This document shows, piece after piece, positions 35,724 to 52,656 of a DNA stretch of 54,811 nucleotides. Position numbers and translations under genes: made by a program. Source of the stretch: an uncultured Caulobacterales bacterium (GTDB lineage Bacteria; Pseudomonadota; Alphaproteobacteria; Caulobacterales; CAYPOX01); the NCBI GenBank assembly GCA_964412525.1, contig CAYPOX010000003.1, positions 1 to 54,811 on the forward strand, read 5' to 3'. Position 1 is the stretch's first letter, and each line of letters starts with the position of its first letter. A model generated the notes under the pieces. It was not told the origin of the DNA. It saw only the letters and a list, made by a program, of their open reading frames with translations, and ran no database searches.

Positions 35724-35777
35724 TCTTCGTCTGCGGCATGGTTGCAGCGCGCGTCGCGCCGCGGCACACACGTCGTC

Positions 35778-37181
35778 ATGAGCCAAGACGATGACTCCAC
35801 GAATGAACCGCCCCTCACGGTGGGCTGGGAAGAATGGGTGCGGCTGCCGGAACTGAAGATTCCGGCGATCCGCGCCAAGGTTGATACGGGCGCGCGAACA
35901 TCCGCGCTGCACGCCTTCAATGTGACGCCCTATCGCGCCAAAGGGCGCGACCGGGTGCGGTTTGGGCTCCATCCCCTCTTTGATCGACCGGACTTGGAGC
36001 TTTACTGCTCCGCCCCATTGATCGACCAGCGGGAGATCACGAGTTCGAACGGCGAGGTCGAACTTCGCTACGTCATCGAAACCACGATCGAACTGGGCGG
36101 ACGCCGGTGGCCGATCGAACTCTCTCTCGCGAACCGCGAGACGATGGCGTACCGCATGCTGCTCGGCCGCCAGGCCCTGAACGCCCGCGCGGTGGTCGAT
36201 CCGGAACGGTCATGCGTTCAAGGCAATCCGGATTTGGACGCTCTCTATGCGTCCCACGGCGAAGGCGGCGATCCGTCACGCACGCTGCGCGTGGCGCTCC
36301 TCACCCGCGAGCCGAACAGCTATTCCAGCCGTCGGATCGTGGCGGCGACCGAGGCCCGCGAACATATGATCGAAGTGGTCGATACGGCGCGATGCTCCAT
36401 CGCGATCGACGCGGCCACGCCGGAGGTCCGTTTCGACGGCCGCGTCTTGCCCCGATATGACGCGGTGATCCCAAGGATCGGCGCCTCGATCACCCATTAC
36501 GGGGCCGCAGTCGTCCGCCAGTTCGAATTGACTGGCGCTTATGTGTTGAACAGCTCGGACGCGATTTTGCGCTCCCGCGACAAATTGTTGGCTCACCAAT
36601 TGATGGCGCGCTTCGGGATCGGCATGCCCAAGACCGGCTTCGCCCGCAGCCCGAAAGACACCGCCGACCTCATCGGCTCCGTCGGCGGCGCGCCTTTGGT
36701 GGTGAAGCTGTTGTCCGGCACCCACGGCCAGGGCGTCGTTTTGGCGGAGACGGCGAAGGCCGCCGAATCGGTGATCGCCGCGTTTCGCGGCTTGGACGCC
36801 GACTTCCTGGTCCAACGTTTCGTGAAAGAGGCCAGCGGCGAAGACCTTCGCTGCTTCGTCGTCGGGGGCAAGGTCGTCGCGTCCATGCTGCGCAAGGCGG
36901 CCGAGGGCGAATATCGCGCCAACCTCCATCGGGGCGGCGTGGCGCTGAAAGTTCGCCTTTCCAAGGAAGAGCGCGACACCGCGCAACGCGCCGCCCGCGC
37001 CCTTGGGCTTCAGGTTGCGGGCGTCGACATGTTGCGGGGATCCGAAGGCCCAGCCGTGCTGGAGGTGAATTCATCTCCAGGGCTGGAGGGCATCGAGAAG
37101 ACCTCGGGCAAGGATGTCGCTGCGCTGATCGTCGAGCACTTGGAACGGCGCGCGCGCCCGCCGCGCCGGCGAAAAATCTGA
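35778..37181 (+). CDS. rimK: fusion protein: DUF785 retropepsin-like (RimB-type, 'ATP-dependent zinc protease') domain + RimK-family alpha-L-glutamate ligase
   Basis: The N-terminal [33 protein letters not shown]...RFGLHPL...LLGRQAL is the DUF785 domain. From about residue 180 there is a full ATP-grasp: [83 protein letters not shown]. There is no stop between the two parts. An alternative start lies at 35742. Confidence 0.8.
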
Positions 37182-37665: not shown

Positions 37666-38253
37666 TTGCTTTACAAGGCGCGTTCGGGAAATTGGACAGT
37701 GATCAGAAAACCTACAGGCGTGTTGGGGCTCGTTACGGCCTTCATGATTTCGCCGCCATTCTTTCTTGATCAAGCTCTTGCTCAGGAAGAGGCGTCACGA
37801 ACGTTGTTCACCGCGACACGCGCCCTGCGCTTTGTCGAGTCCGCTGGAAAACAGTCTGTCGCCTCGATCATTTACAATCCAAGTAATCAAACGTCTTTGA
37901 ACGAGGCTCAAGCGATTTTGAGTCACTATAAAGAACGTGATAGCCTGCAAATTGACGGCCAAACCATTCGTCTGTCTTTGACGCCTGTCGACGACGTCTC
38001 AAGCGCCCGCAACGCCCGTATCGCCTATGTCACGCACGGTCTATCCACGGAAACACACAAGGCCCTCGCCGAGGGCTTAGCGGGCGCCGAAGTGATCACC
38101 ATCACCGGCGATCTCGCCTGCGTCGAAAACGGCCACTGCGTCATGGGCGTTCGCGTGATCCCGCGCGTGGAATTTTACATTTCGGAGACTGCCGCTCAAC
38201 GCGCCACCGTGCGTTTTCAGGCCGCCTTCAAGATCTTGGCGAAGGAGCTCTAA
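37666..38253 (+). CDS. YfiR-like (DUF4154) periplasmic protein
   Basis: Signal peptide IRKPTGVLGLVTAFMISPPFFLDQALA (possible GTG start at 37699). The C-terminal AEVITITGDLACVENGHCVMGVRVIPRVEFYISETAAQRATVRFQAAFKILAKE parallels P. aeruginosa YfiR (...VLSISERGTECSVGSMFCLNVGGPRITFEANLDSIARSGVRVHPSVLKLARR), including the Cys pair. Confidence 0.6.
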   Translation: MLYKARSGNWTVIRKPTGVLGLVTAFMISPPFFLDQALAQEEASRTLFTATRALRFVESAGKQSVASIIYNPSNQTSLNEAQAILSHYKERDSLQIDGQTIRLSLTPVDDVSSARNARIAYVTHGLSTETHKALAEGLAGAEVITITGDLACVENGHCVMGVRVIPRVEFYISETAAQRATVRFQAAFKILAKEL

Positions 38254-40444: not shown

Positions 40445-40600
40445 CGTAAAGCTCTGATTGCGATTGTTTTGTGAGTTTTTGGATCTTTTTCGTCGAAACC
40501 GATATCTGCGGTCGAATACGAATTCCTAACCCTCAGCTTCTAGGACCCATGGCTTAGCCGCGTCGGTTGAGTCGACGCGAATCCGATGAAGGAGGCGCAA

Positions 40601-41077
40601 ATGAGCATTGAACTCGCCGCTCTCGCCGCGGGAGCCGTCACGGCGACCTCCGTGGCCGCCATTACAGGATGGATCGGCCGCGCGCCGGTTGACGGCGCTT
40701 CCTTGCGTCGCGCCGTTGTCTGCAAGACCGGCGACCGTGCGGTCGTGTCCTGCACGATCCATTGCGATGCGGAGCCGGATCCAAGTCGTGGGGCGACGGC
40801 GCGCGCCGTCGCCCGGCAATGGGGCGATCGCGTGGAAGGGCGCATGGGGGCCATCCTCCAGCATGCCGTGAGCGACGCCGCCGAGGGTTTTTCAGCCCAT
40901 GCGGTTCTCCATGACGCGGACGCGTTTCATGCAGCCTGCGAACACATCTTGGCGACGGAGTTCGACCCGCTTGGACGGCGAGTCGCCCGCTTCGAGGTGA
41001 CGGAGACGCGTCTTTTGAAGTCTCTTTCGCCGGTACCAGATCCGAGTTCGGTCGCACCGCCGGCGCTGGCGGCCTAG
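40601..41077 (+). CDS. hypothetical protein with N-terminal hydrophobic segment
   Basis: ATG at 40601 is preceded by AAGGAGG (the ORF-track start at 40586 lies inside that Shine-Dalgarno). N-terminus MSIELAALAAGAVTATSVAAITGW. No family recognised. Confidence 0.45.
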   Translation: MSIELAALAAGAVTATSVAAITGWIGRAPVDGASLRRAVVCKTGDRAVVSCTIHCDAEPDPSRGATARAVARQWGDRVEGRMGAILQHAVSDAAEGFSAHAVLHDADAFHAACEHILATEFDPLGRRVARFEVTETRLLKSLSPVPDPSSVAPPALAA

Positions 41078-41256: not shown

Positions 41257-43869
41257 ATGACCGACCGACCACCCCTCTTCCGACGCCCCATATCCGCTCT
41301 CGCCTTGGCGGCCTTTCGCAAACCGCGGCTGGCCTTGGCGTGCGTGGTGGTCGGGGCGGTGTTGGCCGCGCTTTACGCGGTCATGACGATGTCGGTCTCC
41401 ACCCAAACCACCGATTTGATCGACGCCGACGTTCCCTACCGCCAAGCGTCTTTGGAGTATCGGGCGGCGTTCGGGCGTTCGGCGGACAAAATCGTCGCCG
41501 TGATCGATGCGGAGAGCGCCGAGGAAGCGGATATGGCCGCCTCCCGCCTGCTCCAAGCGCTGCGTGATCGTGAAACGGCGTTTGAAAGCATCGAGGCGCC
41601 CGCCTTCGATCCCTTTTTCCTTCGGAACGGCCTTCTCTATCGGAGCGCGGAGACCCTAGAGCAAACGGTCGACCTTCTCGCCGAAGCTCAAGGCTTCCTG
41701 TCTTCGGTGGCTCAAGAGCCCAATTTGAAAGGATTGTTCGACCCGCTGATCGCGGCGGCCGAAGCCGCCGAGCGCGGCGACATCGACCCGGAAGACGTGA
41801 CGCCCATATTGACCGCCCTTGCGGAGTCCGCGCGCAGCCAAGCGCAAGGCGCACCGCTCGCACTGCCCTGGAGCCAGGTTTTTTCCCGCGGCGCAGCCGA
41901 GTCGGCGCAGCGTTTCATTCTCGTCACGCCGAAACTCGCAAAGACGCGGATCGGCCGCGCCAAGGCCGCCCTCGCCGCCTTTGACGAGGCCATGGACGAG
42001 GCGGCGGCGGCGCGCCCGTCCGCCCGGTTTCGGGCCACAGGCCAGCCCTTGATCCGCCAAGCGGAAGTGGCGGCGGTGTTGGAGGGCCTTTCAACCGCAG
42101 GCCTGGTGTCCTTCATCGCCGTCAGCGCCATCCTGGCCCTCGGCTTACGTTCGGCGATTCTCAGTTTCGCCCTGGGCTTAGCCTTGGTGGCGGGCACGGC
42201 GCTCACGGTCGGCCTCGGCGCGGTCACTGTCGGCCAACTCAATCTTATCTCCGTCGCTTTCATCGTCTTGTTCATCGGCTTGTCTGTGGATTTCGGCATC
42301 CATTTCAGCCTGCGCTTGGCCGAGGAGGCGCGTGCGGGCGCAAAGCCGCAGGACGCCGTCGAAACGGCGGCCTACAGCGTCGGCGGCGCCTTAACCCTTT
42401 CCGCCGCCTGCGCCGCCGCCGGCTTTTTGTCCTTTCTCCCAACGGCCTATCGCGGATTGGCGGAACTCGGCGTGATCGCCGCGGGAGGCATGTTGGTCGC
42501 CTTGCTGCTCAATGTGGTCACCCCCTCAGCCGTCATGGGGTTGAGGGCGCCGAGAGCTCGAGAGACGCCGAAACCGGAAGAGCCCGCACATGGCCTATCT
42601 CAAAGGCTGCGCGCCCATGCGGGGATGGTGACGAGCGCAACCGCGGTGCTCTCCGCCGCGGCGATTTTCGGGGCGATGCAAGCGCGGATCGACGTCAATC
42701 CGCTCAATCTCGCGCCGGTCTCTGAGGCGGTGACGACCTATGAGAGCCTTGCGGCGGACTCACGCACGAACCCTTACGTGTCCAATCACCTGGCGGACAG
42801 CCTTGGGGCCGCGGCGGACCTGAGATCGCGTCTCGCCGAATTGCCCGAAGTTCTGGAGACGCGGGACGTGAGCGTGTTCGTCCCGACAAATCAGGAGTTG
42901 AAACTCCTGATATTGGAGGATCTCGCCTACATCGCGCCGCCGCCGGTCGCCGGCGACGTGGGCGCGGAGGATGACGCCGCGCGCATTGCGGCGATTTCTT
43001 CCCTACGCGACGCAATGGCCGACGCGCCCAATCTCGGCGTCCCAGGCCGCATCCTCAACGCCGCGCTCACCAGCCTGTTGCAGAACGGTCCCGGACCCCG
43101 CGCCGCGTTTGAACGCGACGCCGTCGCGCCCTTGGCGCGTTTGATCGACGTGACGGCCCAAGCGCCGAGCATTGTGGAACTGACGCTCGACGACATCCCG
43201 CAACGGATCCGCGCCGATTGGATCGCGCCGGATGGCCGCGTGCGCGTGGAGGCCACGCCGGCGCAGGACGTCAACGATCCGGACGCGATGCAGGCCTTCG
43301 CGGACGCCGTTTTGAGCGTCGATCCAAAGGCGTCCGGCGCGTCGGTGACGGTGGTCGAGGCTGGCCGAGTGGTGCGGGACTCCTTCATTTTCGCGAGCCT
43401 CGTCTCCGTCATCCTCGTGACGGGGATTTTGGCGATCGTCCTGCGCGATCTGACCGGCGTCGGATTGGCCCTGGCGACACCGATCATCGCGGCGCTTTGG
43501 ACGACCGCCCTGGCGGGAATCACAGGCGTTCCGTTCAATTTCGCCAATGTGATCGTGCTGCCCCTCCTTTTCGGGTTGGGCGCTTCGGCGAGCATTCACA
43601 TGGTCGTGCGCTTTCGGCGTCGGGGCGCCGGCGAAGGCGAAGGCGTCTTCGCCACCTCAACCCCGCTCGCGGTCACTTTGAGCGCGCTGACCACGCTGGC
43701 GTCCTTCGGCAGCCTGCTTCTGTCGCCCCACCGCGGGATGCAAAGCATGGGGTTGCTGCTCACGATCGCGATCGCCGCCATTCTGGTGGTGGCGCTCATC
43801 GCCTTGCCGTCCCTTATGAGCCTGGCCGATCGCCTGCGCGCCGTGCGTCAACGTCACGCCAAGGCGTGA
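41257..43869 (+). CDS. MMPL/RND-superfamily exporter, HpnN-like (hopanoid-transporter-like)
   Basis: 870 aa. The layout is two blocks of TM1, a large periplasmic loop and five TM segments, with SSD-like segments (ISVAFIVLFIGLSVDFGIHF and FANVIVLPLLFGLGASASIHMV). Size and layout match HpnN-type MMPL proteins. Subfamily assignment is not verified. Confidence 0.75.
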   Translation: MTDRPPLFRRPISALALAAFRKPRLALACVVVGAVLAALYAVMTMSVSTQTTDLIDADVPYRQASLEYRAAFGRSADKIVAVIDAESAEEADMAASRLLQALRDRETAFESIEAPAFDPFFLRNGLLYRSAETLEQTVDLLAEAQGFLSSVAQEPNLKGLFDPLIAAAEAAERGDIDPEDVTPILTALAESARSQAQGAPLALPWSQVFSRGAAESAQRFILVTPKLAKTRIGRAKAALAAFDEAMDEAAAARPSARFRATGQPLIRQAEVAAVLEGLSTAGLVSFIAVSAILALGLRSAILSFALGLALVAGTALTVGLGAVTVGQLNLISVAFIVLFIGLSVDFGIHFSLRLAEEARAGAKPQDAVETAAYSVGGALTLSAACAAAGFLSFLPTAYRGLAELGVIAAGGMLVALLLNVVTPSAVMGLRAPRARETPKPEEPAHGLSQRLRAHAGMVTSATAVLSAAAIFGAMQARIDVNPLNLAPVSEAVTTYESLAADSRTNPYVSNHLADSLGAAADLRSRLAELPEVLETRDVSVFVPTNQELKLLILEDLAYIAPPPVAGDVGAEDDAARIAAISSLRDAMADAPNLGVPGRILNAALTSLLQNGPGPRAAFERDAVAPLARLIDVTAQAPSIVELTLDDIPQRIRADWIAPDGRVRVEATPAQDVNDPDAMQAFADAVLSVDPKASGASVTVVEAGRVVRDSFIFASLVSVILVTGILAIVLRDLTGVGLALATPIIAALWTTALAGITGVPFNFANVIVLPLLFGLGASASIHMVVRFRRRGAGEGEGVFATSTPLAVTLSALTTLASFGSLLLSPHRGMQSMGLLLTIAIAAILVVALIALPSLMSLADRLRAVRQRHAKA

Positions 43870-44834
43870 TCCCGCATCCATTGGACCGCATCCGCCAGCG
43901 CGGCGCCGGCGGTGCCGGATCGCAGTCCGAGACGCGCGCGGCTCCAAGACACGTCAAACGGCCGAGCGCGCAAAGCGCTCAACACGCCCGCCTTCGGCGC
44001 CGCCGGCGCGGGCCCGCCCAATGCGGCCAGCCCCTCGCTGGCCGATGCGGCGACAAGCGCCGCGACGTCCGGAATGCGGCGCGTCGGCGCGGCGCGACCG
44101 GAGATTTCCTCCAACTCCGCGAGTATGGCGGACAAACGTCGATTTTCGTCGCCGATCAGATATCGCGCGCCCGCTTCTCCCCGATCACGCGCCGCAATCA
44201 GCCCGTCGGCGAGCGCTCTGACGTCGATCACGTTCATCCATGTCTCGAGAAAGGCCGGGAACCGACCGCGAAGCACGTCCCGGACCAAACGGGTCGGCGG
44301 GGTCATGCCGTGATCGCCTGGACCGATGGGGACGGTCGGCGTGGCGATGACGATGTCCGCGCCGCCCGCGGCCAGGCGCATGGCGGCCGCGTCCGCCCGC
44401 GCCTTTGATTGCGGATAGCCGCGCGGCAACTCTTCGGGCGGCGCGGCGTCCGTTTCCGTCAAAGGCCGCGCCTGCGCGGCGCAGGCCTTTGACGCATACA
44501 CCGTCGGACTGGAGATATGGACCGCGCGCACCCGCCTCTCATGCGCGGCTTCAAAGACCCGCCGCGCGCCATGATGGTTCAAACGTTCGAACACCGCCGC
44601 GTCGCGCGCCCATAGGTGCGGATACGCGGCGCAGTGAAAGACGCTCGTGACCCCTCGCAGCGCCGTATCCAAGACAGCGTCGTCCAAAATCGAGCCCATG
44701 TGCAGATCCGCGCCGTTCAGAGCGTCGCGTGGAGGCTTCAAATCCAAGACCCGGACATGCTCGCCGCGGGCGAGAAGGGCCGCGGCCACATGCGAACCGA
44801 TAAAGCCCGTCCCGCCGGTGACGAGCGCGGTCAC
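43854..44834 (-). CDS. NAD-dependent epimerase/dehydratase (extended SDR; HpnA/3-beta-HSD-like)
   Basis: Contains MTALVTGGTGFIGSHVAAALLARGEHVRVLD and the catalytic YPQSK (YxxxK). 326 aa. The GTG start overlaps the upstream stop (GTGA). The 3' end overlaps the convergent RND gene by 16 nt. Confidence 0.85.
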   Translation of the reverse strand: MTALVTGGTGFIGSHVAAALLARGEHVRVLDLKPPRDALNGADLHMGSILDDAVLDTALRGVTSVFHCAAYPHLWARDAAVFERLNHHGARRVFEAAHERRVRAVHISSPTVYASKACAAQARPLTETDAAPPEELPRGYPQSKARADAAAMRLAAGGADIVIATPTVPIGPGDHGMTPPTRLVRDVLRGRFPAFLETWMNVIDVRALADGLIAARDRGEAGARYLIGDENRRLSAILAELEEISGRAAPTRRIPDVAALVAASASEGLAALGGPAPAAPKAGVLSALRARPFDVSWSRARLGLRSGTAGAALADAVQWMRDHALA

Positions 44835-45976
44835 GACCGCAATCGACAGATCGCAAGGCCGGGCGCCGTCGCCGACCCGACCGCCACGTCGCCGCCGCCC
44901 AGTGCGACGGCGCTTGTCGCCCCGTTCAGCAAATCGCCCTCACGATCGTCGAGCAAGATGCGCGCAGTTGATCCGCTCATCTCCACGATGCGGGACCCGG
45001 AGCGACGGCCTGGGCCGTGGCGCGCCCACGCATAGACAGGCAAATTGTTGTGCAGAGCTGCAAGGACGCGCCCGTCGTCGTCAGCGGTCAAGTTGTCCGG
45101 GGCGCCGGGCAAGCGGATCTCGCCGAATGTCTGAACCGGCAAGGGGCTCTCCTCCAAAATCGCTTCTGGATAAGCGCGCACGGCCCGGCCCCGGGTTTCC
45201 GCCACATAGACGGTCTTTCCCGCCGCGACGACGCCGTTGGCGAAGTGCAGGCCGTCGGCGACGGTGGCCGATCGACCGCTTTCCAGGTCGAAGCGCATCA
45301 CCGACCCGGTGCGCGCGGCGGTCGCCTGCCGCCAGAGAGTCGGCCAAAAGCCGCCGGACGCCCGGTCGAATGTTACATACAGATCGCCGGTCTTCGACCA
45401 CTCCAGGTCATTGGCGCGTATGAAAAACGGGTTGCGCAGGATCGCGCTCGTTCGAAAGGCCCGGGCGTCCGCCGCGTAGACGCGGATCGTCGCATCCGAC
45501 AAGGCGCCGTCGTGATATTGACGCGCAACGACCGCCAATCGGTCATTCTGAAACGCGATCCCGTGGGGCGCGTCGACCTCGAAGTCGCCCAAAGCGGCGC
45601 GGGAGACGCGCAACTCCGCGTCCGCACCCGCCACGCGCGCCACAGGCGCGATGAACACGCCCCCATCCGGGGCGTCCCCCGCTTCGGCGGCCCGACGGTC
45701 ATAAATGGAGAGAAACAGGCGGTCGCGGCCTTGATCGATCGCAAGGTCTTCCGCTTGTCCGGCGAGCGTTTCGCCGGTGTCCGCGTTGATCAGTGGGACG
45801 CGTCGGCACGCGGCGGCGACGTCGAATGCGGCCTGGGGGATCGCAGATTGTTGCGTCCAGGCATAGATCGTCCCGCCTACGGTCAGGGCGGCGATCAGGA
45901 CCAAGAAACGGCGAAACCGCCGGCGCGGACGACACCATGTATTGGGGCGACCGCGATCTTTGAACCGGGCGCTCAC
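44831..45976 (-). CDS. membrane-anchored six-bladed beta-propeller protein (paraoxonase/arylesterase- or SMP-30/strictosidine-synthase-like)
   Basis: N-terminal TM anchor (FLVLIAALTVGGTIYAW). The layout GQAEDLAID...PHGIAF...RANDLEW...FANGVVAAGKTVYVAE...PDNLTADDDG resembles the PON/SGL family. Family assignment is from pattern only. Confidence 0.55.
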   Translation of the reverse strand: MSARFKDRGRPNTWCRPRRRFRRFLVLIAALTVGGTIYAWTQQSAIPQAAFDVAAACRRVPLINADTGETLAGQAEDLAIDQGRDRLFLSIYDRRAAEAGDAPDGGVFIAPVARVAGADAELRVSRAALGDFEVDAPHGIAFQNDRLAVVARQYHDGALSDATIRVYAADARAFRTSAILRNPFFIRANDLEWSKTGDLYVTFDRASGGFWPTLWRQATAARTGSVMRFDLESGRSATVADGLHFANGVVAAGKTVYVAETRGRAVRAYPEAILEESPLPVQTFGEIRLPGAPDNLTADDDGRVLAALHNNLPVYAWARHGPGRRSGSRIVEMSGSTARILLDDREGDLLNGATSAVALGGGDVAVGSATAPGLAICRLRS

Positions 45977-47097
45977 GCAGCCTTCGCATCCGGGCGCTCA
46001 TAGCCCCAGCGGCGAACCCATTCGCCCCAATGCGCCTCCACCTTCGTCGCCGCTTCGTCCGAATAAGCGAAACGGTTCTTCGCAAAGCTCTTCACAGACG
46101 CCAGATAGGTCTCGAAAGCCGGACGGGCCGCTTCAAAGCCGTCGATCTCCAACTGATCATAGATGAAGCGCACCGCGTCGATCGGATCGCGATCCAAACG
46201 CTCATATTCGATCTCGGCCAAAGCGTCCGGCGGTAAGGCGGCCGCGTCCCGTTCATAGACGCGCATCATCCGCGCATAGGTTCGAAGGATCACGCCGTCC
46301 ACGTCCACCTCGGCGAAATCCTGCAGCGCCATCTCCTGGAGAAGCTTTGCGTAGAAATTGCGCATGGAGGCGAACACTTCATAGGGATTGCGGCGGATAT
46401 GGATGAAGCGCGCATCCGGAAACATCGCCCTCAACACGCCCGCGCGGGCTGTGTAAACGGGATTCTTGATCAAAAGACGGCGACCGCCTTGGGTCGCGAT
46501 GATTTTTTTGAAGAAACGCCGCGCCGCCCGCCGCCATTGTGCACGCAAACCGGCGGACGCGCCGTCCATGAACACGCCGCGATCGATCCAAGCGTCGAAG
46601 CGGTGCGGAAAATAGATGCCATGGAAAAACGACAGGGTCGTCATGTTCGCGATCGCCGTTTCATCTTCCTGGGGGCTGTCGCCATGCACGGGGATGGCGT
46701 CGATGAACCGATCCGGGGGAAGGGTCTTGGCGATCGGCCCCTGGAGCCACCGCGCCAAGGTGGTCGTCTCCCACGGCATGCCCGTGTCCACTGGCGGAAC
46801 GAAGGCGAATTGGGGGTCCTTCGCCATGATGTTGTAAAGATGCGTCGTGCCGGAACGCCAATGGCCGAGAATGAAAATTGGGCGCGAGATCGGCGTGCGT
46901 CCCCAACTGAACGGCCCGATCGCTTGATCCAAGACGGTGAAGGGCGCACGGCCGAGGGCCGAAAGCGCGGCGAATGCGGCGCGCATGCGGCTTTCCCTGG
47001 CGACGCCGCCCGAACCGAGATACAGGCGACCCAGAGTCCATAGATCCGCGCCCGCCAAAGGATGTCGCAGTGATCTCCGCATGCTCATGTCCGCCAT
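45973..47097 (-). CDS. sulfotransferase-family protein
   Basis: 5'-PSB-like loop PIFILGHWRSGTTHLYN, then a 3'-PB-like region (RRLLIKNPVYTAR...IHIRRNPYEVFAS). 374 aa. GTGA and 13-nt overlaps with its neighbours. Confidence 0.8.
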   Translation of the reverse strand: MADMSMRRSLRHPLAGADLWTLGRLYLGSGGVARESRMRAAFAALSALGRAPFTVLDQAIGPFSWGRTPISRPIFILGHWRSGTTHLYNIMAKDPQFAFVPPVDTGMPWETTTLARWLQGPIAKTLPPDRFIDAIPVHGDSPQEDETAIANMTTLSFFHGIYFPHRFDAWIDRGVFMDGASAGLRAQWRRAARRFFKKIIATQGGRRLLIKNPVYTARAGVLRAMFPDARFIHIRRNPYEVFASMRNFYAKLLQEMALQDFAEVDVDGVILRTYARMMRVYERDAAALPPDALAEIEYERLDRDPIDAVRFIYDQLEIDGFEAARPAFETYLASVKSFAKNRFAYSDEAATKVEAHWGEWVRRWGYERPDAKAA

Positions 47098-48125
47098 CGC
47101 AAGGTCGCGGGCCGCACCGGGTTCTCAAAAGGAACGCCCTCGTCGACCGCTTTACGCCAAGCGCGCTTTAAGGCGAGATACCAGCGTTGCTGGGCGTCCG
47201 CATCCATCACCAACATCGTTTTGGGCGCAAAGGCGAGCCCGCGGTTTTGCACCGCCACGATCGCCTGATCTTGGCCTAGAAAACGGCGGGCGAGAAGGCT
47301 CATGAGGGGCTTGAAGACGTCCAGAACCGGGTTGGTCCAGTAAAGCAGGTTCAGGGCGCGGGTGCGCGTGGCGCTGATGGGCGTCATGGCCGTCACATTG
47401 GCGATGACATGGCGGCCGACACGGATATGTTCGCAGCGCCATCCGGGAATCCGAAACGTGATCTCCGTGGTGCGATCGCCGCCCAACAATTTGTAAATGA
47501 ACGCGTTGGATGAGGGCGGATGGCGCACCATCCTGAAACCGTCGTCGACGGGTTCGAAAGCCTTGGACTTCAGCTGCAAGGCTTCGGGCGAACGCCACAG
47601 GCGGCTTTGATGGACATAGGGCCCATGGGCCGGGTCGAGCAATCCGAACACCGCATTGTCCATATCCGTTTCAAAGATCAGCTCCGTCGCCACTTTCGGG
47701 CGCACATTGCCCAAGTCCTGCGCGGACGGCGGCTCGTCCGGCCCAGCTCCGGGCGCGCGCACCCACACGATCCCCTGGCGTTCGCGCACGTCATAGACTG
47801 GGGTTCGGAACTTTGAGATATCGACCTCTTGATCCGGCGCAAGCGACGGTACGCCGGCGCAGGTTCCGTCCGTCCGGAACCGCCAGCCGTGAAACGGGCA
47901 GACCAATTCGCGTCCGTCGAACCCGCCCGCCGACAACAGCGCCCCCCGGTGCGGACAGAGATCCTCGACGGCGAAGGCCGCACCGTCCTGGTCGCGGCCC
48001 AGCGCCAAGGGTCGTCCCAAAATGGTCCGCGCCACAACGCGGCCCGTCTTGAGGGCGCGCGCGGGAGCCGCGGCGTACCAGAGCCCGGGCAACGTCTCCG
48101 GTTCAACGGTTTGAGATTCGGTCAC
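47085..48125 (-). CDS. Rieske [2Fe-2S] / mononuclear-iron oxygenase (PaO/LLS1-like class)
   Basis: Rieske motif CPHRGALLS...CPFHGWRF, and a non-heme iron motif LLDPAHGPYVH (D-x2-H-x4-H). Proposed GTG start at 48125 (VTESQTVEPETLPGLWY), because the longer ORF would run through the cca coding region. Confidence 0.8.
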   Translation of the reverse strand: MTESQTVEPETLPGLWYAAAPARALKTGRVVARTILGRPLALGRDQDGAAFAVEDLCPHRGALLSAGGFDGRELVCPFHGWRFRTDGTCAGVPSLAPDQEVDISKFRTPVYDVRERQGIVWVRAPGAGPDEPPSAQDLGNVRPKVATELIFETDMDNAVFGLLDPAHGPYVHQSRLWRSPEALQLKSKAFEPVDDGFRMVRHPPSSNAFIYKLLGGDRTTEITFRIPGWRCEHIRVGRHVIANVTAMTPISATRTRALNLLYWTNPVLDVFKPLMSLLARRFLGQDQAIVAVQNRGLAFAPKTMLVMDADAQQRWYLALKRAWRKAVDEGVPFENPVRPATLRWRT

Positions 48126-49374
48126 GATTCTGTTCCTGCACGATGGCGCGCAGACGGGCCTTAAGGGCGGACGGATCGTCAGGAAACCCCGCCGCCACCC
48201 ACCAATCCTCAACGGCGCGCAGCACCGCGCCGACCGCAGGGCCTTTCGGAGCGCCCGCATCCAAGGCGTCGGTCCCGCTGAGCGGAAATTGCCCGGGCGC
48301 GGACGCGGCGGCGGCGCGGGCTGCGCGCCATGGATCCGGCGCGCCACCGTCGGTTCCCGCCCAAGCGAGCAGCAGGCCGTCGTCAAAGGCCGTGACGCCG
48401 TGGCGGTAAGCGGCGGCGCGCGACGCCTGCGCGGAGGGCGCGCCGTCCGGCGCCGCCGTCCAGGCCGCTTGAAGCCGGTCGCACAGGGCCTTGGAGAGTT
48501 TCAAATGCGCTCCGACGTTCCGGGCGCGGTCCATTGATCCGGTCAGCGCCGCCAGTCGCCGAACGGCGTCGATCTCCGCGTCGCCCGCCTGTTCCAGCGA
48601 GACCAAGCGCGCGGCCCGCGGCCCATCGATGAGATCGGGCGACAACGCCGTCATCACGGAGCGCTCCTGCATCAGGCTCACCGCATGGCGGGGGTCCGGC
48701 GCACCCAGGAGCTTCAACAACTCCTTCCCGATCCGCTCCACCGAGAGTTTCGCCATCCCGTCCTTCAAACGGGCGCAAGCCTCAACTCCGTCCCCGTCGG
48801 CGGGCGGCGCGCCATACCAGGCGAAAAAGCGGAAAAAGCGTAGGATGCGAAGATAGTCCTCTCGGATGCGGGTTTCCGGATCGCCGATGAAGCGGACATA
48901 TCCGGCGGCGGCGTCATCCAAGCCCGACCCGCTCGGATCGAACAGCGTCCCGTCCGACGCCGCATAGAGCGCGTTCATCGTGAAGTCACGCCGCCGCCAA
49001 TCGAGGTCCCAATCCTCCGTGAACGCCACGACCGCGCGCCGGCCGTCCGTCTCGACGTCGGCCCGCAAGCTGGTGATCTCGAAAGCGCGGCCCTCCACCA
49101 CCGCCGTCACGGTTCCGTGGGCGAGTCCGGTGGGCGCAACCTTCACGCCTGAAGCGTCGAGCGCGCCGATGACCGCGTCCGGCGCCAATTGAGTGGCGAG
49201 ATCCACGTCGTCCACCGCACGGCCCATCACGCTGTTTCGAACGCAGCCGCCCACAAACCGCACGCCGCCGGGCTTGACGGCCTCAAGCGCGTCGATCACC
49301 CGCCGCGTCGCCGGCGCGGCGATCCAGCCATGGGTCTGCGGATCGAGGCGCGTGGCGGCGGTCACGCGGTTCAA
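48103..49374 (-). CDS. cca: CCA tRNA nucleotidyltransferase (poly(A) polymerase family)
   Basis: Contains RFVGGCVRNSVMGRAVDDVDLAT, RRDFTMNALY and LRILRFFRFFAWYG. Confidence 0.9.
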   Translation of the reverse strand: MNRVTAATRLDPQTHGWIAAPATRRVIDALEAVKPGGVRFVGGCVRNSVMGRAVDDVDLATQLAPDAVIGALDASGVKVAPTGLAHGTVTAVVEGRAFEITSLRADVETDGRRAVVAFTEDWDLDWRRRDFTMNALYAASDGTLFDPSGSGLDDAAAGYVRFIGDPETRIREDYLRILRFFRFFAWYGAPPADGDGVEACARLKDGMAKLSVERIGKELLKLLGAPDPRHAVSLMQERSVMTALSPDLIDGPRAARLVSLEQAGDAEIDAVRRLAALTGSMDRARNVGAHLKLSKALCDRLQAAWTAAPDGAPSAQASRAAAYRHGVTAFDDGLLLAWAGTDGGAPDPWRAARAAAASAPGQFPLSGTDALDAGAPKGPAVGAVLRAVEDWWVAAGFPDDPSALKARLRAIVQEQNRDRISNR

Positions 49375-49595
49375 GAGTCCTCTGGGTCCGGGATCGCATA
49401 GGTCGGCGCTGGAGGGGCGGAGCCGTCAATGGTCGCGCCCATCACCGCCATGCCGATGATCGCGCCGACCAGACCCGCCGCCGTCAGCGTCTTCATCGGC
49501 CAAGGCGTGGACGGCTTCGCCACCCATCGCGCCAAGGCGTAGGCGACGAACGGGGCGGCGAACAAAATGGCGGCGAGAGTTAATGCGCGGATCAT
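49371..49595 (-). CDS. small two-TM membrane protein of unknown function
   Basis: 74 aa. Contains MIRALTLAAILFAAPFVAYAL and a second helix LTAAGLVGAIIGMAVMG. It has 4-nt overlaps with both neighbours. Confidence 0.55.
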   Translation of the reverse strand: MIRALTLAAILFAAPFVAYALARWVAKPSTPWPMKTLTAAGLVGAIIGMAVMGATIDGSAPPAPTYAIPDPEDS

Positions 49596-50203
49596 GGTTT
49601 GGCGAACGCCGTTTCATACAAGCTGACGAGCATGGCGGCCGTCGCGCCCCAGATATATCGGTCGCGCCAAGGGATGGCGTAGTAACGCCGTATCGCGCCG
49701 CGAAAGGGCTGCGCATGCACCTCATGGCGCGACGGATCCATCAGATCCGCGAGCGGCGCTTCGAACACGTCGTCGACCTCCGCCGGGTCTGGCCTCCAGG
49801 GTTGATTTGGGCGCACCAACCCCACAAAGGGCGCCACTCGAAATCCGGTCACGGTTCGGTAATCCGGCAATCGCCCGAGAACTTCGACCCGATCCCGCGC
49901 CAAGCCGATCTCCTCCTCGGCCTCGCGGAGCGCCGCGTCCAGCGGCGAATGATCGGTTGCGTCGATCCGCCCGCCGGGAAACGCGATCTGCCCGGCGTGC
50001 CGCTTCAACTTCGGGGAGCGCACGGTCAACAGAATCGTGGGACCGCTTGGCCGTTCGACGATCGGAGCCAACACCGCCGCCGGGCGCAGCGCCGCCGCAT
50101 CGTCGGGTTCCTCATGGACGTCGAGATCGAAATCCGATCGAGGCGCGGCGTCCTGCGCGGCCAAGCGCGCACTGACGCCGTCCGGGGTCCAGGATGCGAT
50201 CAT
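49592..50203 (-). CDS. CoA pyrophosphatase (NUDIX hydrolase)
   Basis: Nudix box GQIAFPGGRIDATDHSPLDAALREAEEEIGL, preceded by the LLTVRS CoA-type motif. Confidence 0.85.
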   Translation of the reverse strand: MIASWTPDGVSARLAAQDAAPRSDFDLDVHEEPDDAAALRPAAVLAPIVERPSGPTILLTVRSPKLKRHAGQIAFPGGRIDATDHSPLDAALREAEEEIGLARDRVEVLGRLPDYRTVTGFRVAPFVGLVRPNQPWRPDPAEVDDVFEAPLADLMDPSRHEVHAQPFRGAIRRYYAIPWRDRYIWGATAAMLVSLYETAFAKP

Positions 50204-50772
50204 GCGGGCTCCGGATCGAGCGGGAAAAAGACGCCGCCGCTCCAGACCCCGTCGCGGCCCTCATGGGTTTCAACCCGCTCCGCCAATTCGTAGAACACGG
50301 CGCGAGTGAGGCGCGCGTCGAGGCGGTCACGAACGCGCACATAGGGCGACGGCGCGCCGTCCGCGCCATGCACCGTCCAGAGCGGGCGTTCCCGTCCTGC
50401 GACGGTCCAATCGTCCACATTGGTGCGGAAAGCCAGGACCTGTTCGCGCCCCTCGCCCTCCGCGCACATCTCCACCGCTAGGAACGGCGCGTCGTCCACG
50501 ATGATGCGCACCTTCTCGACGGGGGTCACCAAATGATGATCGCCCTCCCCGTCACGCAGGAGGATGGTCGAAAACAGACGCACCAAACGCGCACGGTTGA
50601 TGGGGGAGTCGCGATACAGCCAGACCCCGTCGCGCCGAATGCGGATCGGCAGATCACCGCAATGCTTCGGGCTCCATTCGTGAATAGGCGGCAGGCCGCC
50701 GCGGCCGGCGGTCTCCGCCTCCCGCGCCAACGCCTTGATGTCAGGTGCGCCCGTGATCATCACGCCGTGCAC
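50200..50772 (-). CDS. DUF1285-domain protein
   Basis: Contains PIRIRRDGVWLYRDSPINRARLVRLFSTILLRDGEGDHHLVTPVEKVRIIVDDAPFLAVEM, characteristic of DUF1285. The DUF1285-NUDIX-cca order is conserved in alphaproteobacteria. Confidence 0.8.
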   Translation of the reverse strand: MHGVMITGAPDIKALAREAETAGRGGLPPIHEWSPKHCGDLPIRIRRDGVWLYRDSPINRARLVRLFSTILLRDGEGDHHLVTPVEKVRIIVDDAPFLAVEMCAEGEGREQVLAFRTNVDDWTVAGRERPLWTVHGADGAPSPYVRVRDRLDARLTRAVFYELAERVETHEGRDGVWSGGVFFPLDPEPA

Positions 50773-50781
50773 ATAAGATGC

Positions 50782-52656
50782 TTATGGGGCCGCCGCCAGA
50801 CAGGCTTCGCACACAACATAACGGCTGCGCGGATCGGGAGCGCGGATCAGAAACGACAGTTGATCGAGAGCCGGTCGGATCGGACGCAGCCACAGGTGAT
50901 CCAAAACCGAGAGCCCCGCCAGCCGCGGCGCGGCCACATTGGCCAAGTTCAGAAGCAACTGTTCGGTGAAGGTGAGCGGCTCTTCGATCACCACCGTGTC
51001 GTAATCGGAGAGCCCGGCCAATTCGGCGGCGGCGGCCACGGCGTCGTCTTGGCCGCCCAACTCGTCCACCAGACCGAGCTGCAACGCACGAGCGCCCAGC
51101 CAAACCCGTCCCTGCGCAATCTGGTCCACCTCCTCGACCGTCATGCCGCGTCCATTGGCGACGCGCTCAAGGAAGTCGCCATAGCCGTCTTCGATCGAGG
51201 CTTGGATGATCCTCCGCGATTGTTCGGTCATCGGCCGGGTGATGTCGAACGCATCCGAATAGGGCGTGTAGGCGACGCCGTCCGACCGCACGCCGATGGC
51301 CTCAAGAGCGCGCGGCGCTTTTGGGATGATCGCAAAGATGCCGATGGATCCGGTCTGGGTGGTGGGATGGGCGAAAATGCGGTCGGCGTCCGCGGCGATC
51401 CAATAGCCGCCGGAGGCTGCATATGTGCCCATGGATACGACCACCGGCTTGCCCGCCGCCTTCACTTGCTCGACGCGATTGCGGATCAGCTCCGACGCGA
51501 AGGCCCCGCCGCCAGGACTGTCGACCCGGATCACCAGCGCCTTCACGTTCGGATTGTTGGCGGCCTCGATGAGCAGGCTCGTGATCGTGTCCGCACCCAT
51601 GACGCCCGCTTCGCTTTCGCCGCCGGCGATGTCGCCGGTGGCGTAGATGACGGCGACCTGGCCGACGCCTTTGCGGACCGGCGCACGCACGGCCTCCACA
51701 TAGTCGTCAAAGGCGACCGAGCGGTATGGCGCGCCGCCATTTTCGCCGCCGCCGAACCGGTCGATCATTTGCGCCTCAAAGCCGGGCACGTCGACCAAAT
51801 GGTCGACGAGGCCCGCGGCGCGCGCCGCTCGGGCGCTGTCGCCGCCCGCCGCTTCGATCAGATCCGCGAAATTCAATGCGTAGCGATCAACATCGGCGGG
51901 ATCGATCCCGCGCCCCTCGGCGATGTGCGCGCGCGCAGCCGACCATAGGCCATCGCCCAACTCGGCCAGATTCTCGCGATACTCCGGCGACATGTTGTTG
52001 CGGATGAAGGGCTCGACCGCCGCCTTGAACGTTCCGACGCGGAAGATCTCCAAGTCGATCCGCGCCTTTTCGAGCAGGTCCGCAAAAAACAAGGGTTGAA
52101 TCGCATAACCGTCCAAAAGGACGTCGCCAATCGCGTGCAGCCAAGCCTCATCAGCGGCCGACGCCACCACTGCGCGCGGTCCGTTGAGATAGTCTCCGAA
52201 CGCGATGACCTCCTTGCCGTCCGCGCGGAAATCGTTGATCGCGTCGGCCACGACAAGCGCATGCGACGTCGACAGTGCGGCCCCAGAGATTTCGATCACC
52301 GCGCCTGCGATCCGGTCGTCGCGCTTCGCCTCTTTCAACGAGCGCACCACGTCTTGGAGAACGACGACAGGCTGATCGGAGCCGAATGGGGACGGCAACG
52401 CGTCTAAGGGACGACGCTTCTCGACCATCACGCCGGCCAAGGAGACCCGGAGGGCGGAGCCGTCCTCCACCACCACGACATCGTTCGAGGACATCGCAGA
52501 GAAGAAGAACACGAGGCCGATCAGAAACAGCACGGTGAGCGCAAACAATGCGGTCCGGGTGAGCAGAAACCAGATCCCGCCAATGATGAACGCGATCCAA
52601 CCCAACGGTCCCCGCTCCAACTTGTCACCTGTCGCCACGTCGCACTCCCATGTCAC
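50782..52656 (-). CDS. sppA: signal peptide peptidase SppA, 67K type (S49 family)
   Basis: 624 aa. N-terminal TM region and two S49 domains. Contains VVSMGTYAASGGYWIA (Ser nucleophile region) and VDELGG. Confidence 0.9.
   Translation of the reverse strand: MTWECDVATGDKLERGPLGWIAFIIGGIWFLLTRTALFALTVLFLIGLVFFFSAMSSNDVVVVEDGSALRVSLAGVMVEKRRPLDALPSPFGSDQPVVVLQDVVRSLKEAKRDDRIAGAVIEISGAALSTSHALVVADAINDFRADGKEVIAFGDYLNGPRAVVASAADEAWLHAIGDVLLDGYAIQPLFFADLLEKARIDLEIFRVGTFKAAVEPFIRNNMSPEYRENLAELGDGLWSAARAHIAEGRGIDPADVDRYALNFADLIEAAGGDSARAARAAGLVDHLVDVPGFEAQMIDRFGGGENGGAPYRSVAFDDYVEAVRAPVRKGVGQVAVIYATGDIAGGESEAGVMGADTITSLLIEAANNPNVKALVIRVDSPGGGAFASELIRNRVEQVKAAGKPVVVSMGTYAASGGYWIAADADRIFAHPTTQTGSIGIFAIIPKAPRALEAIGVRSDGVAYTPYSDAFDITRPMTEQSRRIIQASIEDGYGDFLERVANGRGMTVEEVDQIAQGRVWLGARALQLGLVDELGGQDDAVAAAAELAGLSDYDTVVIEEPLTFTEQLLLNLANVAAPRLAGLSVLDHLWLRPIRPALDQLSFLIRAPDPRSRYVVCEACLAAAP

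What the first reader, a model, noticed from the sequence alone, without database searches (positions are those of the whole stretch)
43854..48125. Translationally coupled Rieske oxygenase - sulfotransferase - PON-like propeller - SDR epimerase/dehydratase string appended to the cca operon
**Arrangement.** Four minus-strand genes overlap one another and the housekeeping cca gene:
- cca stop 48103 against Rieske GTG 48125.
- A 13-nt overlap at 47085/47097.
- GTGA overlaps at 45973-45976 and at 44831-44834.

**Predicted chemistry.** The four functions form a coherent tailoring series:
- Hydroxylation or desaturation, from the Rieske motif CPHRG...CPFHGW plus the D-x2-H-x4-H iron site.
- PAPS-dependent sulfation, from the RSGTT loop.
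- A membrane-anchored six-bladed lactonase/esterase-like propeller.
- An extended-SDR oxidoreductase (GGTGFIGS, YxxxK).

**Comparison.** A Rieske oxygenase paired with an NAD(P) SDR recalls the bacterial sterol C-4 demethylation pair SdmA/SdmB. The string ends 16 nt inside a convergent HpnN-like lipid exporter. I do not recognise this four-gene combination as any described pathway.

**Hypothesis.** The cluster modifies (hydroxylates and sulfates) a hopanoid, sterol-like or other envelope lipid that the neighbouring exporter then moves.
Basis: partly seen in the sequence, partly recalled or inferred. Interest (0 to 1): 0.7.

Follow-up and report, generated by a model that had tools for sequence, protein, structure and literature searches.

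The report
Sulfotransferase module in hopanoid gene clusters
Three of the four genes (a sulfotransferase, a paraoxonase-like enzyme and an HpnA-type reductase) form a conserved unit that sits beside hopanoid lipid genes in dozens of mostly marine bacteria, which points to an undescribed sulfated hopanoid, while the Rieske oxygenase belongs with the neighbouring cca gene.

Summary
The gene string is real. All stated overlaps and motifs are present, apart from the sulfotransferase start.

It is a composite of two parts.

**Hopanoid module (43854-47097, minus strand).** It holds a Stf-type PAPS sulfotransferase, a membrane-anchored PON1-like Ca2+ propeller and an HpnA-family SDR. The order sulfotransferase, propeller, SDR recurs in 62 of 80 related genomic loci. 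In 38 of the 49 trio loci with at least 6 kb of downstream sequence it lies beside hpnB/C/D/E/G/H, ispH, shc or hpnN. In the window it converges on an HpnN-like exporter.

**Rieske oxygenase (47085-48125).**
- It is absent from all 80 of those loci.
- Five of 87 loci found through its own homologs place it directly after cca.
- Only one of the 87, its closest relative, has a sulfotransferase after it.
- It belongs to the SppA-DUF1285-NUDIX-cca synteny block.

The SdmA/SdmB analogy fails: 69 and 113 bits against cut-offs of 600.

Best reading: the trio tailors the hopanoid side chain, probably by O-sulfation, and HpnN exports the product. The full-text searches found no report of sulfated hopanoids or of these genes as hopanoid-associated.

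This is a new variant of a known kind, of moderate to high interest.

The parts
43854..44834 (-). HpnA-family extended SDR (326 aa; GGTGFIGS, YPQSK). Third gene of the conserved trio.
   Evidence: Pfam Epimerase at 91.6 bits. The best NCBIfam hit is HpnA TIGR03466 at 255 bits, below the 367.65 cut-off; SdmB scores only 113 bits. A homolog follows the sulfotransferase in 68 of 80 loci, next to hpnB and hpnC.
44831..45976 (-). Membrane-anchored PON1-like six-bladed Ca2+ propeller (381 aa; predicted TM helix at residues 19-44). Second gene of the trio.
   Evidence: Pfam SGL at 38 bits. The family profile A3 hits PON1 1v04 at E 1.4e-29. The AF2 model has pLDDT 78 and its top Foldseek hits are PON1, at E 3.5e-18 and TM 0.76. 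E76, D77, H138, N189, N247, D294 and N295 are invariant or nearly so. 51 of 63 homologs carry a lipobox-like N-terminus.
45973..47097 (-). Stf-type PAPS-dependent sulfotransferase. First gene of the trio. The likely start is ATG 47082 or 47088, not 47097.
   Evidence: Sulfotransfer_3 at 120 bits. The HWRSGTTH loop and R236/S244 are invariant. The AF2 model has pLDDT 88.5 and its top folds are mycobacterial Stf1 (2zq5) and Stf9 (2z6v). More than 2600 homologs were found, and relatives occur in at least 596 of the matched genome stretches.
41257..43869 (+). HpnN-like RND (HAE3) hopanoid exporter, convergent with the SDR and overlapping it by 16 nt.
   Evidence: TIGR03480 HpnN at 721.5 bits over its full length (cut-off 751.85) and MMPL domains. 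The same convergent SDR/HpnN layout occurs in L038 and L057, and HpnN lies within 10 kb of the trio in further loci.
47085..48125 (-). Alpha3-type Rieske non-haem iron oxygenase (346 aa) of unknown substrate. It belongs to the cca synteny block, not to the conserved trio.
   Evidence: Rieske at 77.6 bits plus VanA_C. The closest solved relatives are SxtT and SxtDIOX at about 102 bits. It lies directly downstream of cca in L083, L087, L167, L168 and L169. It is absent from all 80 trio loci.
48103..49374 (-). CCA tRNA nucleotidyltransferase (housekeeping).
   Evidence: PolyA_pol plus PolyA_pol_RNAbd; the best NCBIfam hit is PRK13299 at 144 bits, below its 290 cut-off.
49371..52656 (-). Upstream part of the same tightly packed gene chain: SppA, DUF1285, NUDIX CoA pyrophosphatase and a 74-aa membrane ORF.
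   Evidence: The same order is found in L083 and L168.

Best explanation
The string is a juxtaposition of two units.

**Unit A, 48125-52656 (shown by synteny).** This is a housekeeping block: SppA, DUF1285, NUDIX, a small membrane ORF, cca and a Rieske monooxygenase of unknown substrate. It recurs in related Alphaproteobacteria.

**Unit B, 41257-47097 (association shown, chemistry inferred).** This is a hopanoid side-chain tailoring and export module. The proposed steps are:
1. The HpnA-family SDR carries out an NAD(P)-dependent redox step on the ribose-derived C35 side chain. One example would be making or exposing the hydroxyl of bacteriohopanetetrol from ribosylhopane.
2. The cytoplasmic Stf-type sulfotransferase transfers sulfate from PAPS to a side-chain hydroxyl, giving an anionic sulfo-bacteriohopanepolyol.
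3. HpnN carries the lipid towards the outer membrane.
4. The membrane- or lipid-anchored periplasmic PON1-like Ca2+ hydrolase then acts on the exported lipid at the membrane surface. It would hydrolyse a lactone or ester, for instance a ribonolactone-type side chain or an acyl ester.

Sulfotransferase-HpnA pairs also exist without the propeller. That makes this pair the functional core and the propeller an accessory.
For: **The trio is conserved.**
- The order sulfotransferase, propeller, SDR occurs on one strand in 62 of 80 loci from different species (L054 and L058 counted by eye).
- A close relative, L170, keeps it at 75-87% identity.

**The trio is linked to hopanoid genes.**
- 38 of the 49 trio loci with at least 6 kb of downstream sequence carry two or more hpn genes.
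- In relatives, HpnB scores 485 bits, HpnH 535 bits and SHC 806 bits, all above their curated cut-offs.
- shc lies inside the cluster in 12 loci.
- Every trio SDR tested has HpnA as its best family, at 150-353 bits.
- HpnN is convergent on the SDR in L038 and L057, as in the window.

**The enzymes look active.**
- The PAPS loops of the sulfotransferase are invariant, and its fold matches Stf1 and Stf9.
- The propeller keeps the PON1 Ca2+ ligands and H115, the PON1 fold, and an N-terminal anchor or lipobox plus a conserved terminal Cys pair.

**The Rieske gene is separate.**

**Literature.**
- hpnA and hpnB are stated to have no established function (PMC12583986).
- Neither that paper nor the microsynteny study PMC12324291 reports these genes as hopanoid-associated.
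Against: - There is no biochemical evidence. No sulfated hopanoid was found in the full-text searches.
- The window has no shc or hpnB-H genes, and the rest of this genome is not visible.
- All trio SDRs score below the HpnA curated cut-off.
- Several trio-carrying genera (Amphiplicatus, Hyphococcus, Marinicaulis) are reported to lack shc (PMC12583986). Their clusters have no shc between hpnE and hpnG. The substrate there may not be a cyclised hopanoid.
- The sulfotransferase is cytoplasmic and the propeller is predicted to be periplasmic, so the order of steps is a guess.
- The Rieske-sulfotransferase junction, with a 4-nt overlap, is shared with the closest relative L167. A lineage-specific recruitment of the Rieske enzyme cannot be excluded.
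Confidence: 0.6

Rival explanations
1. All four genes form one pathway. The Rieske oxygenase hydroxylates or desaturates a hopanoid or sterol-like lipid, the sulfotransferase sulfates the new hydroxyl, and the propeller and SDR finish the job before HpnN exports the product.
For: - The Rieske stop and the sulfotransferase start are 2 nt apart or overlap by 4 nt in the window.
- The same junction, with a 4-nt overlap, exists in L167, the closest Rieske relative at 64% identity.
- The closest solved relatives, SxtT and SxtDIOX, hydroxylate non-aromatic C-H bonds (their chemistry is from general knowledge).
- A hydroxylase plus a Stf-type sulfotransferase is the logic of mycobacterial sulfomenaquinone synthesis (Cyp128/Stf3, from general knowledge). 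One homolog carries that annotation at JGI (P0021).
Against: - None of the 80 sulfotransferase or trio loci has a Rieske homolog within 10 kb.
- 86 of the 87 Rieske loci have no sulfotransferase, propeller, SDR or hpn gene.
- The Rieske gene follows cca in five genomes, four of them without the trio.
- Elsewhere its neighbours are ribF, hisI, an ABC transporter or an alpha/beta hydrolase.
- The coupling chain also includes plainly unrelated housekeeping genes.
- No reductase or ferredoxin partner is adjacent.
Confidence: 0.17
2. The trio acts on something other than a cyclised hopanoid. Candidates are an acyclic squalene-derived lipid, a carotenoid (carotenoid sulfates exist in some Alphaproteobacteria, from general knowledge) or a glycolipid sugar made by HpnB. 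On this reading its place beside the hpn genes reflects shared isoprenoid supply or co-regulation.
For: - Amphiplicatus, Hyphococcus and Marinicaulis clusters lack shc, and these genera are reported to have no shc at all.
- HpnB also shows weak similarity to the carotenoid glycosyltransferase CruG (84-89 bits).
- The sulfotransferase gives a weak hit to the Nod-factor sulfotransferase NoeE (25 bits).
- About 10 trio loci have no hpn gene within 10 kb.
Against: - HpnH (adenosylhopane synthase, 535 bits) and HpnG are in the same clusters.
- 12 clusters do contain shc.
- The SDR's best family is always HpnA.
- In the window the only lipid gene beside the trio is HpnN.
Confidence: 0.15
3. Sulfation is transient. 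As in the CurM and olefin-synthase sulfotransferase domains or in retinol dehydratase, the sulfate activates a side-chain hydroxyl as a leaving group for elimination or ring closure. One outcome would be a 32,35-anhydro-type ether, so the final lipid would carry no sulfate.
For: - The family profile hits the olefin-synthase (4gox, E 3.8e-10) and CurM (4gbm) sulfotransferase domains.
- Foldseek also lists retinol dehydratase.
- No sulfated hopanoid has been reported despite broad BHP surveys.
Against: - The closest structural relatives are Stf1 and Stf9, not CurM.
- There is no adjacent thioesterase-like partner.
- The idea rests on inference alone.
Confidence: 0.06
4. The Rieske protein and the SDR are an SdmA/SdmB-type sterol C-4 demethylation pair.
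For: SdmA and SdmB are the first and second best NCBIfam hits for the Rieske protein and the SDR respectively.
Against: - The scores are 69 and 113 bits against cut-offs of 600.
- The SdmA match covers only the generic Rieske domain (residues 15-126).
- The SDR scores more than twice as high on HpnA.
- The two genes are not adjacent and are not co-conserved.
Confidence: 0.02

Closest known systems
Hopanoid (hpn) biosynthetic gene clusters: the hpnA-hpnB-hpnH-ispH and hpnCDE(F)G blocks with the HpnN exporter (Zymomonas, Rhodopseudomonas, Burkholderia)
   Same: The SDR is HpnA-like. In relatives it lies next to hpnB, hpnC-E, hpnG, hpnH, ispH and sometimes shc. An HpnN-like RND gene is adjacent in the window.
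   Different: Canonical clusters, as described in PMC12583986 and PMC12324291, list no sulfotransferase or PON-like gene. The trio SDRs fall below the HpnA curated cut-off. In the window the module is detached from the biosynthetic core.
Mycobacterial Stf sulfotransferases (Stf1 and Stf9 structures; Stf3/Cyp128 sulfomenaquinone pathway)
   Same: They share the Sulfotransfer_3 fold and PAPS loops, and give the best structural matches. In both cases a cytoplasmic enzyme is thought to sulfate a membrane isoprenoid lipid that is then exported.
   Different: Identity is only about 17-19%. No P450 partner is present. The lipid context here is hopanoid, not menaquinone or trehalose.
Serum paraoxonase PON1 (six-bladed Ca2+ lactonase anchored to HDL by its N-terminal helix)
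   Same: They share the fold, the Ca2+ ligands (E53, D54, N168, N224, D269, N270), H115, an N-to-C-terminal Cys pair and an N-terminal hydrophobic anchor. The PON1 residue roles and its E53/D54 region come from general knowledge.
   Different: It is bacterial and predicted to be periplasmic, mostly as a lipoprotein. PON1 H134 is replaced by a conserved Arg. Identity is about 18% and the substrate is unknown.
SdmA/SdmB bacterial sterol C-4 demethylase pair
   Same: Both involve a Rieske oxygenase and an extended SDR of the 3beta-HSD/HpnA superfamily.
   Different: The scores are far below the cut-offs. The two genes are not adjacent to each other and not co-conserved. The context is hopanoid, not sterol.
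Rieske monooxygenases SxtT and SxtDIOX (GxtA) and the VanA/DdmC-type alpha3 oxygenases
   Same: They share the domain layout (Rieske plus a VanA_C-like catalytic domain), and these are the best sequence matches among solved structures.
   Different: Similarity is only about 102 bits. There is no toxin or aromatic-catabolic context, and the neighbours are housekeeping genes.

Membership tests
HpnA (TIGR03466, hopanoid-associated SDR) | Score at or above the curated cut-off (367.65 bits) | tested here: not met
   The window SDR scores 255 bits. Trio SDRs from other loci score 150-353 bits, all below the cut-off.
HpnA (TIGR03466, hopanoid-associated SDR) | HpnA is the best-scoring family, over the full length | tested here: met
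   HpnA is the top hit, covering residues 1-324 of 326. The next hit, SdmB, scores 113 bits.
HpnA (TIGR03466, hopanoid-associated SDR) | Location in an hpn cluster next to hpnB and hpnC | tested here: met
   This holds for the orthologs in relatives. In the window only HpnN is adjacent.
HpnN (TIGR03480, hopanoid RND exporter) | Score at or above the curated cut-off (751.85 bits), full-length RND/MMPL architecture | tested here: inconclusive
   721.5 bits over residues 14-855, just under the cut-off. The equivalog NF052374 scores 552 bits against a cut-off of 1100. Two MMPL stretches are present.
PAPS-dependent sulfotransferase, Sulfotransfer_3 / mycobacterial Stf type | Pfam score above gathering threshold; 5'-phosphosulfate loop and 3'-phosphate Arg/Ser; sulfotransferase fold | tested here: met
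   120 bits against a threshold of 27. HWRSGTTH, R236 and S244 are invariant. The model has pLDDT 88.5 and its top hits are Stf1 and Stf9.
Paraoxonase/arylesterase-type six-bladed Ca2+ propeller | Six-bladed propeller fold closest to PON1 | tested here: met
   The profile hits PON1 at E 1.4e-29. The top 10 Foldseek hits are all PON1, with TM 0.72-0.76 normalised to the target.
Paraoxonase/arylesterase-type six-bladed Ca2+ propeller | Catalytic and structural Ca2+ ligands (PON1 E53, D54, N168, D169, N224, D269, N270) | tested here: met
   E76, D77, N189, N247, D294 and N295 are invariant or nearly so in 42 sequences, and the window protein has D190 beside N189. N168, N224, D269 and N270 are aligned. 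The E53/D54 equivalence rests on the GAEDL motif and my own knowledge of PON1.
Paraoxonase/arylesterase-type six-bladed Ca2+ propeller | His115-His134 dyad | tested here: not met
   H138 matches H115 and is nearly invariant. The H134 position is Arg in 40 of 42 sequences.
Paraoxonase/arylesterase-type six-bladed Ca2+ propeller | Pfam Arylesterase (PF01731) hit | tested here: not met
   The window protein hits only SGL PF08450. One distant homolog, P0244, carries PF01731.
SdmA/SdmB sterol C-4 demethylase | Equivalog scores of at least 600 bits for both proteins | tested here: not met
   SdmA 69 bits (Rieske domain only) and SdmB 113 bits.
SdmA/SdmB sterol C-4 demethylase | Oxidosqualene cyclase and sterol genes in the genome | not testable with these tools
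   Only this 54.8-kb contig is available, and it has no cyclase.
Rieske non-haem iron oxygenase (alpha subunit) | CxH...CxxH Rieske centre plus a mononuclear Fe site of two His and a carboxylate | tested here: met
   C57, H59, C76, H79 and D164, H167, H172 are invariant, with D308 or D310 as candidate carboxylates. Pfam gives Rieske plus VanA_C.
Rieske non-haem iron oxygenase (alpha subunit) | Cognate reductase or ferredoxin nearby | tested here: not met
   None was found in the flanking genes of the window.
One four-gene tailoring operon (Rieske + sulfotransferase + propeller + SDR) | Co-conservation of all four genes across genomes | tested here: not met
   None of the 80 trio loci has the Rieske gene. 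One of the 87 Rieske loci has a sulfotransferase.

The most novel reading that the evidence does not exclude
Marine Alphaproteobacteria (Parvularculaceae, Hyphococcus, Amphiplicatus, Marinicaulis, Iodidimonas and relatives), and some Verrucomicrobiota that carry only the sulfotransferase-HpnA pair, make a so far undetected class of sulfated bacteriohopanepolyols.

In this reading HpnA supplies the hydroxyl that a dedicated Stf-type sulfotransferase esterifies, and a PON-like lipoprotein remodels the lipid in the envelope. That would give the first function for HpnA, a new anionic hopanoid head group and a new biomarker class.
Probability: 0.4. Interest if true: 0.78.

Novelty: new variant of a known kind. 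Interest (0 to 1): 0.62.

Why it matters
- Hopanoids are major bacterial membrane lipids and geological biomarkers. Their known polar head groups are polyols, amines, sugars, cyclitol ethers and nucleosides; I know of no sulfate esters (my own knowledge).
- hpnA and hpnB have had no established function for more than 25 years (PMC12583986).
- A sulfotransferase and a paraoxonase-like lipoprotein are locked to hpnA in at least 62 species. This gives a concrete, testable prediction of a new hopanoid class and a handle on HpnA.
- Testing is practical because several carriers are cultured type strains.
- It also shows that translational coupling in a compact genome can link unrelated genes. Here a housekeeping cca-Rieske block is fused to a lipid module.

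Tried and rejected
**Searches that led nowhere**
- Exact-sequence look-ups of the window's own proteins and of P0062 found nothing.
- The word-indexed homolog search for the propeller returned only 4 proteins. I built the family alignment from locus translations instead. The exhaustive search later showed 658 representative clusters at E <= 1e-30.
- The promoter and terminator scan of 40.3-53 kb was at background level and uninformative.

**Ideas rejected**
VanA_C was hit instead.
- SdmA/SdmB membership was rejected on scores.
- No hpnB/C/D/E/G/H, ispH or shc is present anywhere in the window by tblastn. The PNP_UDP_1 gene at 29349-30233 gave no tblastn match to HpnG.
- A tRNA-related role for the Rieske protein was considered because of its link with cca. 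Elsewhere its neighbours are ribF, hisI, an ABC transporter or a hydrolase, so nothing specific supports that role.

**Question left open**

Full report
**1. Observation**

ORF listing and the sequence itself confirm four minus-strand genes.
- SDR, 43854-44834.
- Propeller, 44831-45976.
- Sulfotransferase, 45973-47097.
- Rieske ORF from 47085, with the proposed GTG start at 48125.
- GTGA overlaps lie at 44831-44834 and 45973-45976.
- The cca stop at 48103 lies 23 nt inside the Rieske ORF.
- The convergent RND gene 41257-43869 overlaps the SDR end by 16 nt.

Pfam gives Epimerase and 3Beta_HSD for the SDR, SGL for the propeller, Sulfotransfer_3 for the sulfotransferase, and Rieske plus VanA_C (not PaO) for the oxygenase. 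cca matches PolyA_pol and the RND gene matches MMPL.

Two corrections follow.
- Sulfotransferase homologs start about two residues before the invariant HPL motif (L167), and the database gene call is 369 aa (P0001). The true start is therefore probably ATG 47082, 2 nt after the Rieske stop, or ATG 47088, which gives an ATGA overlap. It is probably not 47097.
- The chain of overlapping or abutting genes continues upstream through a 74-aa membrane ORF (49371-49595), NUDIX (49592-50203), DUF1285 (50200-50772) and SppA (50782-52656). That makes nine genes, several plainly unrelated, so coupling does not by itself define a pathway.

**2. What the trio is**

The SDR's best NCBIfam family is HpnA (255 bits, cut-off 367.65). 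SdmB reaches only 113 bits against a cut-off of 600. The RND protein is HpnN-like, at 721.5 bits against 751.85.

The sulfotransferase has more than 2600 homologs at about 45-56% identity. In Amphiplicatus metriothermophilus its ortholog heads the following gene order:
- sulfotransferase, a 366-aa protein, then the SDR;
- next to hpnB (485 bits), hpnC, hpnD, hpnE, hpnG, hpnH (535 bits) and ispH.

A scan of one genome per species returned 80 loci, out of at least 596 matched stretches that encode a relative. tblastn of these loci and the tallies show:
- the trio in the same order and on the same strand in 62 of 80 loci;
- two or more hpn genes in 38 of the 49 trio loci that have at least 6 kb of downstream sequence;
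- shc (806 bits in L046) inside the cluster in 12 loci;
- HpnN convergent on the SDR in L038 and L057, exactly as in the window;
- sulfotransferase-SDR pairs without a propeller in L025 and in the Verrucomicrobiota loci L044, L055 and L060.

Every trio SDR tested has HpnA as its best family, at 150-353 bits. A short contig from a close relative (L170) keeps the trio at 75-87% identity.

**3. The propeller**

- A 42-sequence family profile hits PON1 at E 1.4e-29 over 264 residues.
- An AF2 model (pLDDT 78) has PON1 as its ten best Foldseek hits, at E 3.5e-18.
- Invariant or nearly invariant residues E76, D77, H138, N189, N247, D294 and N295 correspond to PON1 E53, D54, H115, N168, N224, D269 and N270. 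PON1 H134 is replaced by a conserved Arg.
- C57 and C377 are conserved, like the PON1 disulfide that links its N- and C-terminal regions.
- Most homologs begin with a lipobox-like signal (51 of 63 by a crude pattern). The window protein instead has a predicted anchor helix at residues 19-44.

The enzyme is therefore predicted to be extracytoplasmic and membrane-tethered. The family is large, with 658 representative clusters at E <= 1e-30.

**4. The sulfotransferase**

The PAPS loops are invariant. The model (pLDDT 88.5) is closest to mycobacterial Stf1 and Stf9, followed by tyrosylprotein, olefin-synthase and CurM sulfotransferases. One homolog carries the JGI name of the Stf3 reaction. That is a lead only.

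**5. The Rieske gene**

No Rieske homolog occurs in any of the 80 trio loci.

From the Rieske side, 87 loci were examined. These were 80 from a metagenome scan and 7 from exact look-ups.
- None carries the full trio or any hpn gene.
- Five (L083, L087, L167, L168 and L169) have the Rieske gene directly after cca. Four of these were retrieved through its closest homologs (55-64% identity) and the fifth is the best hit of the metagenome scan (53%).
- L083 and L168 reproduce the whole SppA-DUF1285-NUDIX-cca-Rieske order of the window. L168 also has the small ORF and the divergent MoxR gene.
- Only L167, the closest relative, continues with a sulfotransferase start that overlaps the Rieske stop by 4 nt.
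- Elsewhere the neighbours are ribF, hisI, an amino-acid ABC transporter or an alpha/beta hydrolase.

The closest solved relatives are SxtT and SxtDIOX at about 102 bits. The match to SdmA is 69 bits and covers the Rieske domain only.

The Rieske gene is therefore part of a housekeeping synteny block onto which the hopanoid module was joined, in the sub-lineage of the window and L167. A lineage-specific recruitment remains possible, and I rate it at about 0.17.

**6. Mechanism**

What is shown:
- The trio is conserved and linked to hpn clusters and to HpnN.
- The catalytic residues are intact.
- The sulfotransferase and the SDR have no export signal, whereas the propeller does.

What is inferred:
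1. The HpnA-type SDR performs a redox step on the ribose-derived side chain.
2. The sulfotransferase O-sulfates a side-chain hydroxyl.
3. HpnN exports the anionic lipid.
4. The PON-like hydrolase acts on it at the periplasmic membrane surface.

The rivals are the four-gene model, a non-hopanoid substrate, and sulfate used as a transient leaving group.

The non-hopanoid rival gains weight from an unexplained observation. The clusters in Amphiplicatus, Hyphococcus and Marinicaulis lack shc. A recent survey lists these genera as having no shc at all (PMC12583986). Yet they encode a high-scoring HpnH.

**7. Comparison with what is known, and novelty**

Full-text searches found no paper linking hopanoids with a sulfotransferase, and none on sulfated hopanoids.

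The 2025 alphaproteobacterial survey states that hpnA, hpnB and hpnL have no established function. It found no obvious further candidate genes near hpn clusters. The 2025 microsynteny study reports hpnL, hpnM, hpnS and hpnT, but no sulfotransferase or PON-like family.

The module is thus a new variant of a known kind: a hopanoid cluster with unreported tailoring enzymes.

The rest of the window is ordinary chromosome (carB fragment, trxB, uvrC, prs, ychF, cytochrome bc1, hemF, rimK, a TonB-dependent receptor). It has no other hopanoid gene.

**8. Verdict**

- Observation: confirmed.
- Interpretation: partly supported. The hopanoid and sulfation idea and the exporter link hold for three genes. 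The Rieske and SdmA/B parts do not.
- Interest: 0.62.

Noticed in passing
L001/L010 (Amphiplicatus), L005, L018, L028 (Hyphococcus), L021, L031 (Marinicaulis): region from hpnE to hpnG: These hpn clusters have hpnB, C, D, E, G, H and ispH but no shc between hpnE and hpnG. PMC12583986 lists these genera as lacking shc altogether, yet HpnH scores 535 bits against a cut-off of 225. What HpnH acts on there is unexplained.
   Followed up: partly
window 43854-52656, minus strand: Nine consecutive genes, from SppA to the SDR, are separated by at most 9 nt or overlap. The chain mixes housekeeping and lipid genes and includes a 74-aa two-helix membrane ORF (49371-49595). An 82-aa ORF sits in the same position in L168.
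   Followed up: partly
L024:13223-14092, L005:13174-14121 and 12 other loci: A protein of about 290-315 aa with no Pfam or NCBIfam match directly follows the HpnA-like SDR on the same strand in 14 loci. It is often followed by a universal stress protein. It may be a fourth member of the module in Hyphococcus and Marinicaulis-type genomes.
   Followed up: no
L001 4276-9833 and about 26-30 other loci, upstream of the sulfotransferase: A TamB and Omp85 (TamA-like) pair lies divergently just upstream of the sulfotransferase in many Parvularculaceae-type loci. This may be lineage synteny or a link to envelope lipid transport.
   Followed up: no
L044, L055, L060 (Verrucomicrobiota) and L025: Sulfotransferase-HpnA-like SDR pairs occur without the propeller. 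The SDR in L060 scores 353 bits on HpnA, the highest seen. This suggests the sulfotransferase-SDR pair is the functional core.
   Followed up: partly
L088-L166 (metagenome contigs with the Rieske homolog): The Rieske family is widespread, with 524 confirmed metagenome matches. It often lies between ribF (divergent) and hisI. It looks like a conserved orphan oxygenase among core genes, and its substrate is unknown.
   Followed up: partly
window 44831-45976 (propeller residues 186 and 208): A second Cys pair, present in 39 of 42 family members, is replaced by Ile and Gly in the window protein. The lipobox is replaced by an uncleaved-looking anchor helix.
   Followed up: no
window 35742-37181: A single ORF combines a RimB-type retropepsin-like domain (residues 25-164) with RimK (residues 183-473), the S6 glutamate ligase.
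   Followed up: no
window 40586-41077 and 37666-38253: Two ORFs (163 and 195 aa) flank the TonB-dependent receptor, upstream of hpnN. The 163-aa ORF has no match in Pfam or NCBIfam; the 195-aa ORF had none in NCBIfam, the only library tried. No homolog was seen in the other trio loci.
   Followed up: no
window 1977-2849: A protein of the Mito_fiss_Elm1 family (PF06258, 266 bits) lies among housekeeping genes.
   Followed up: no
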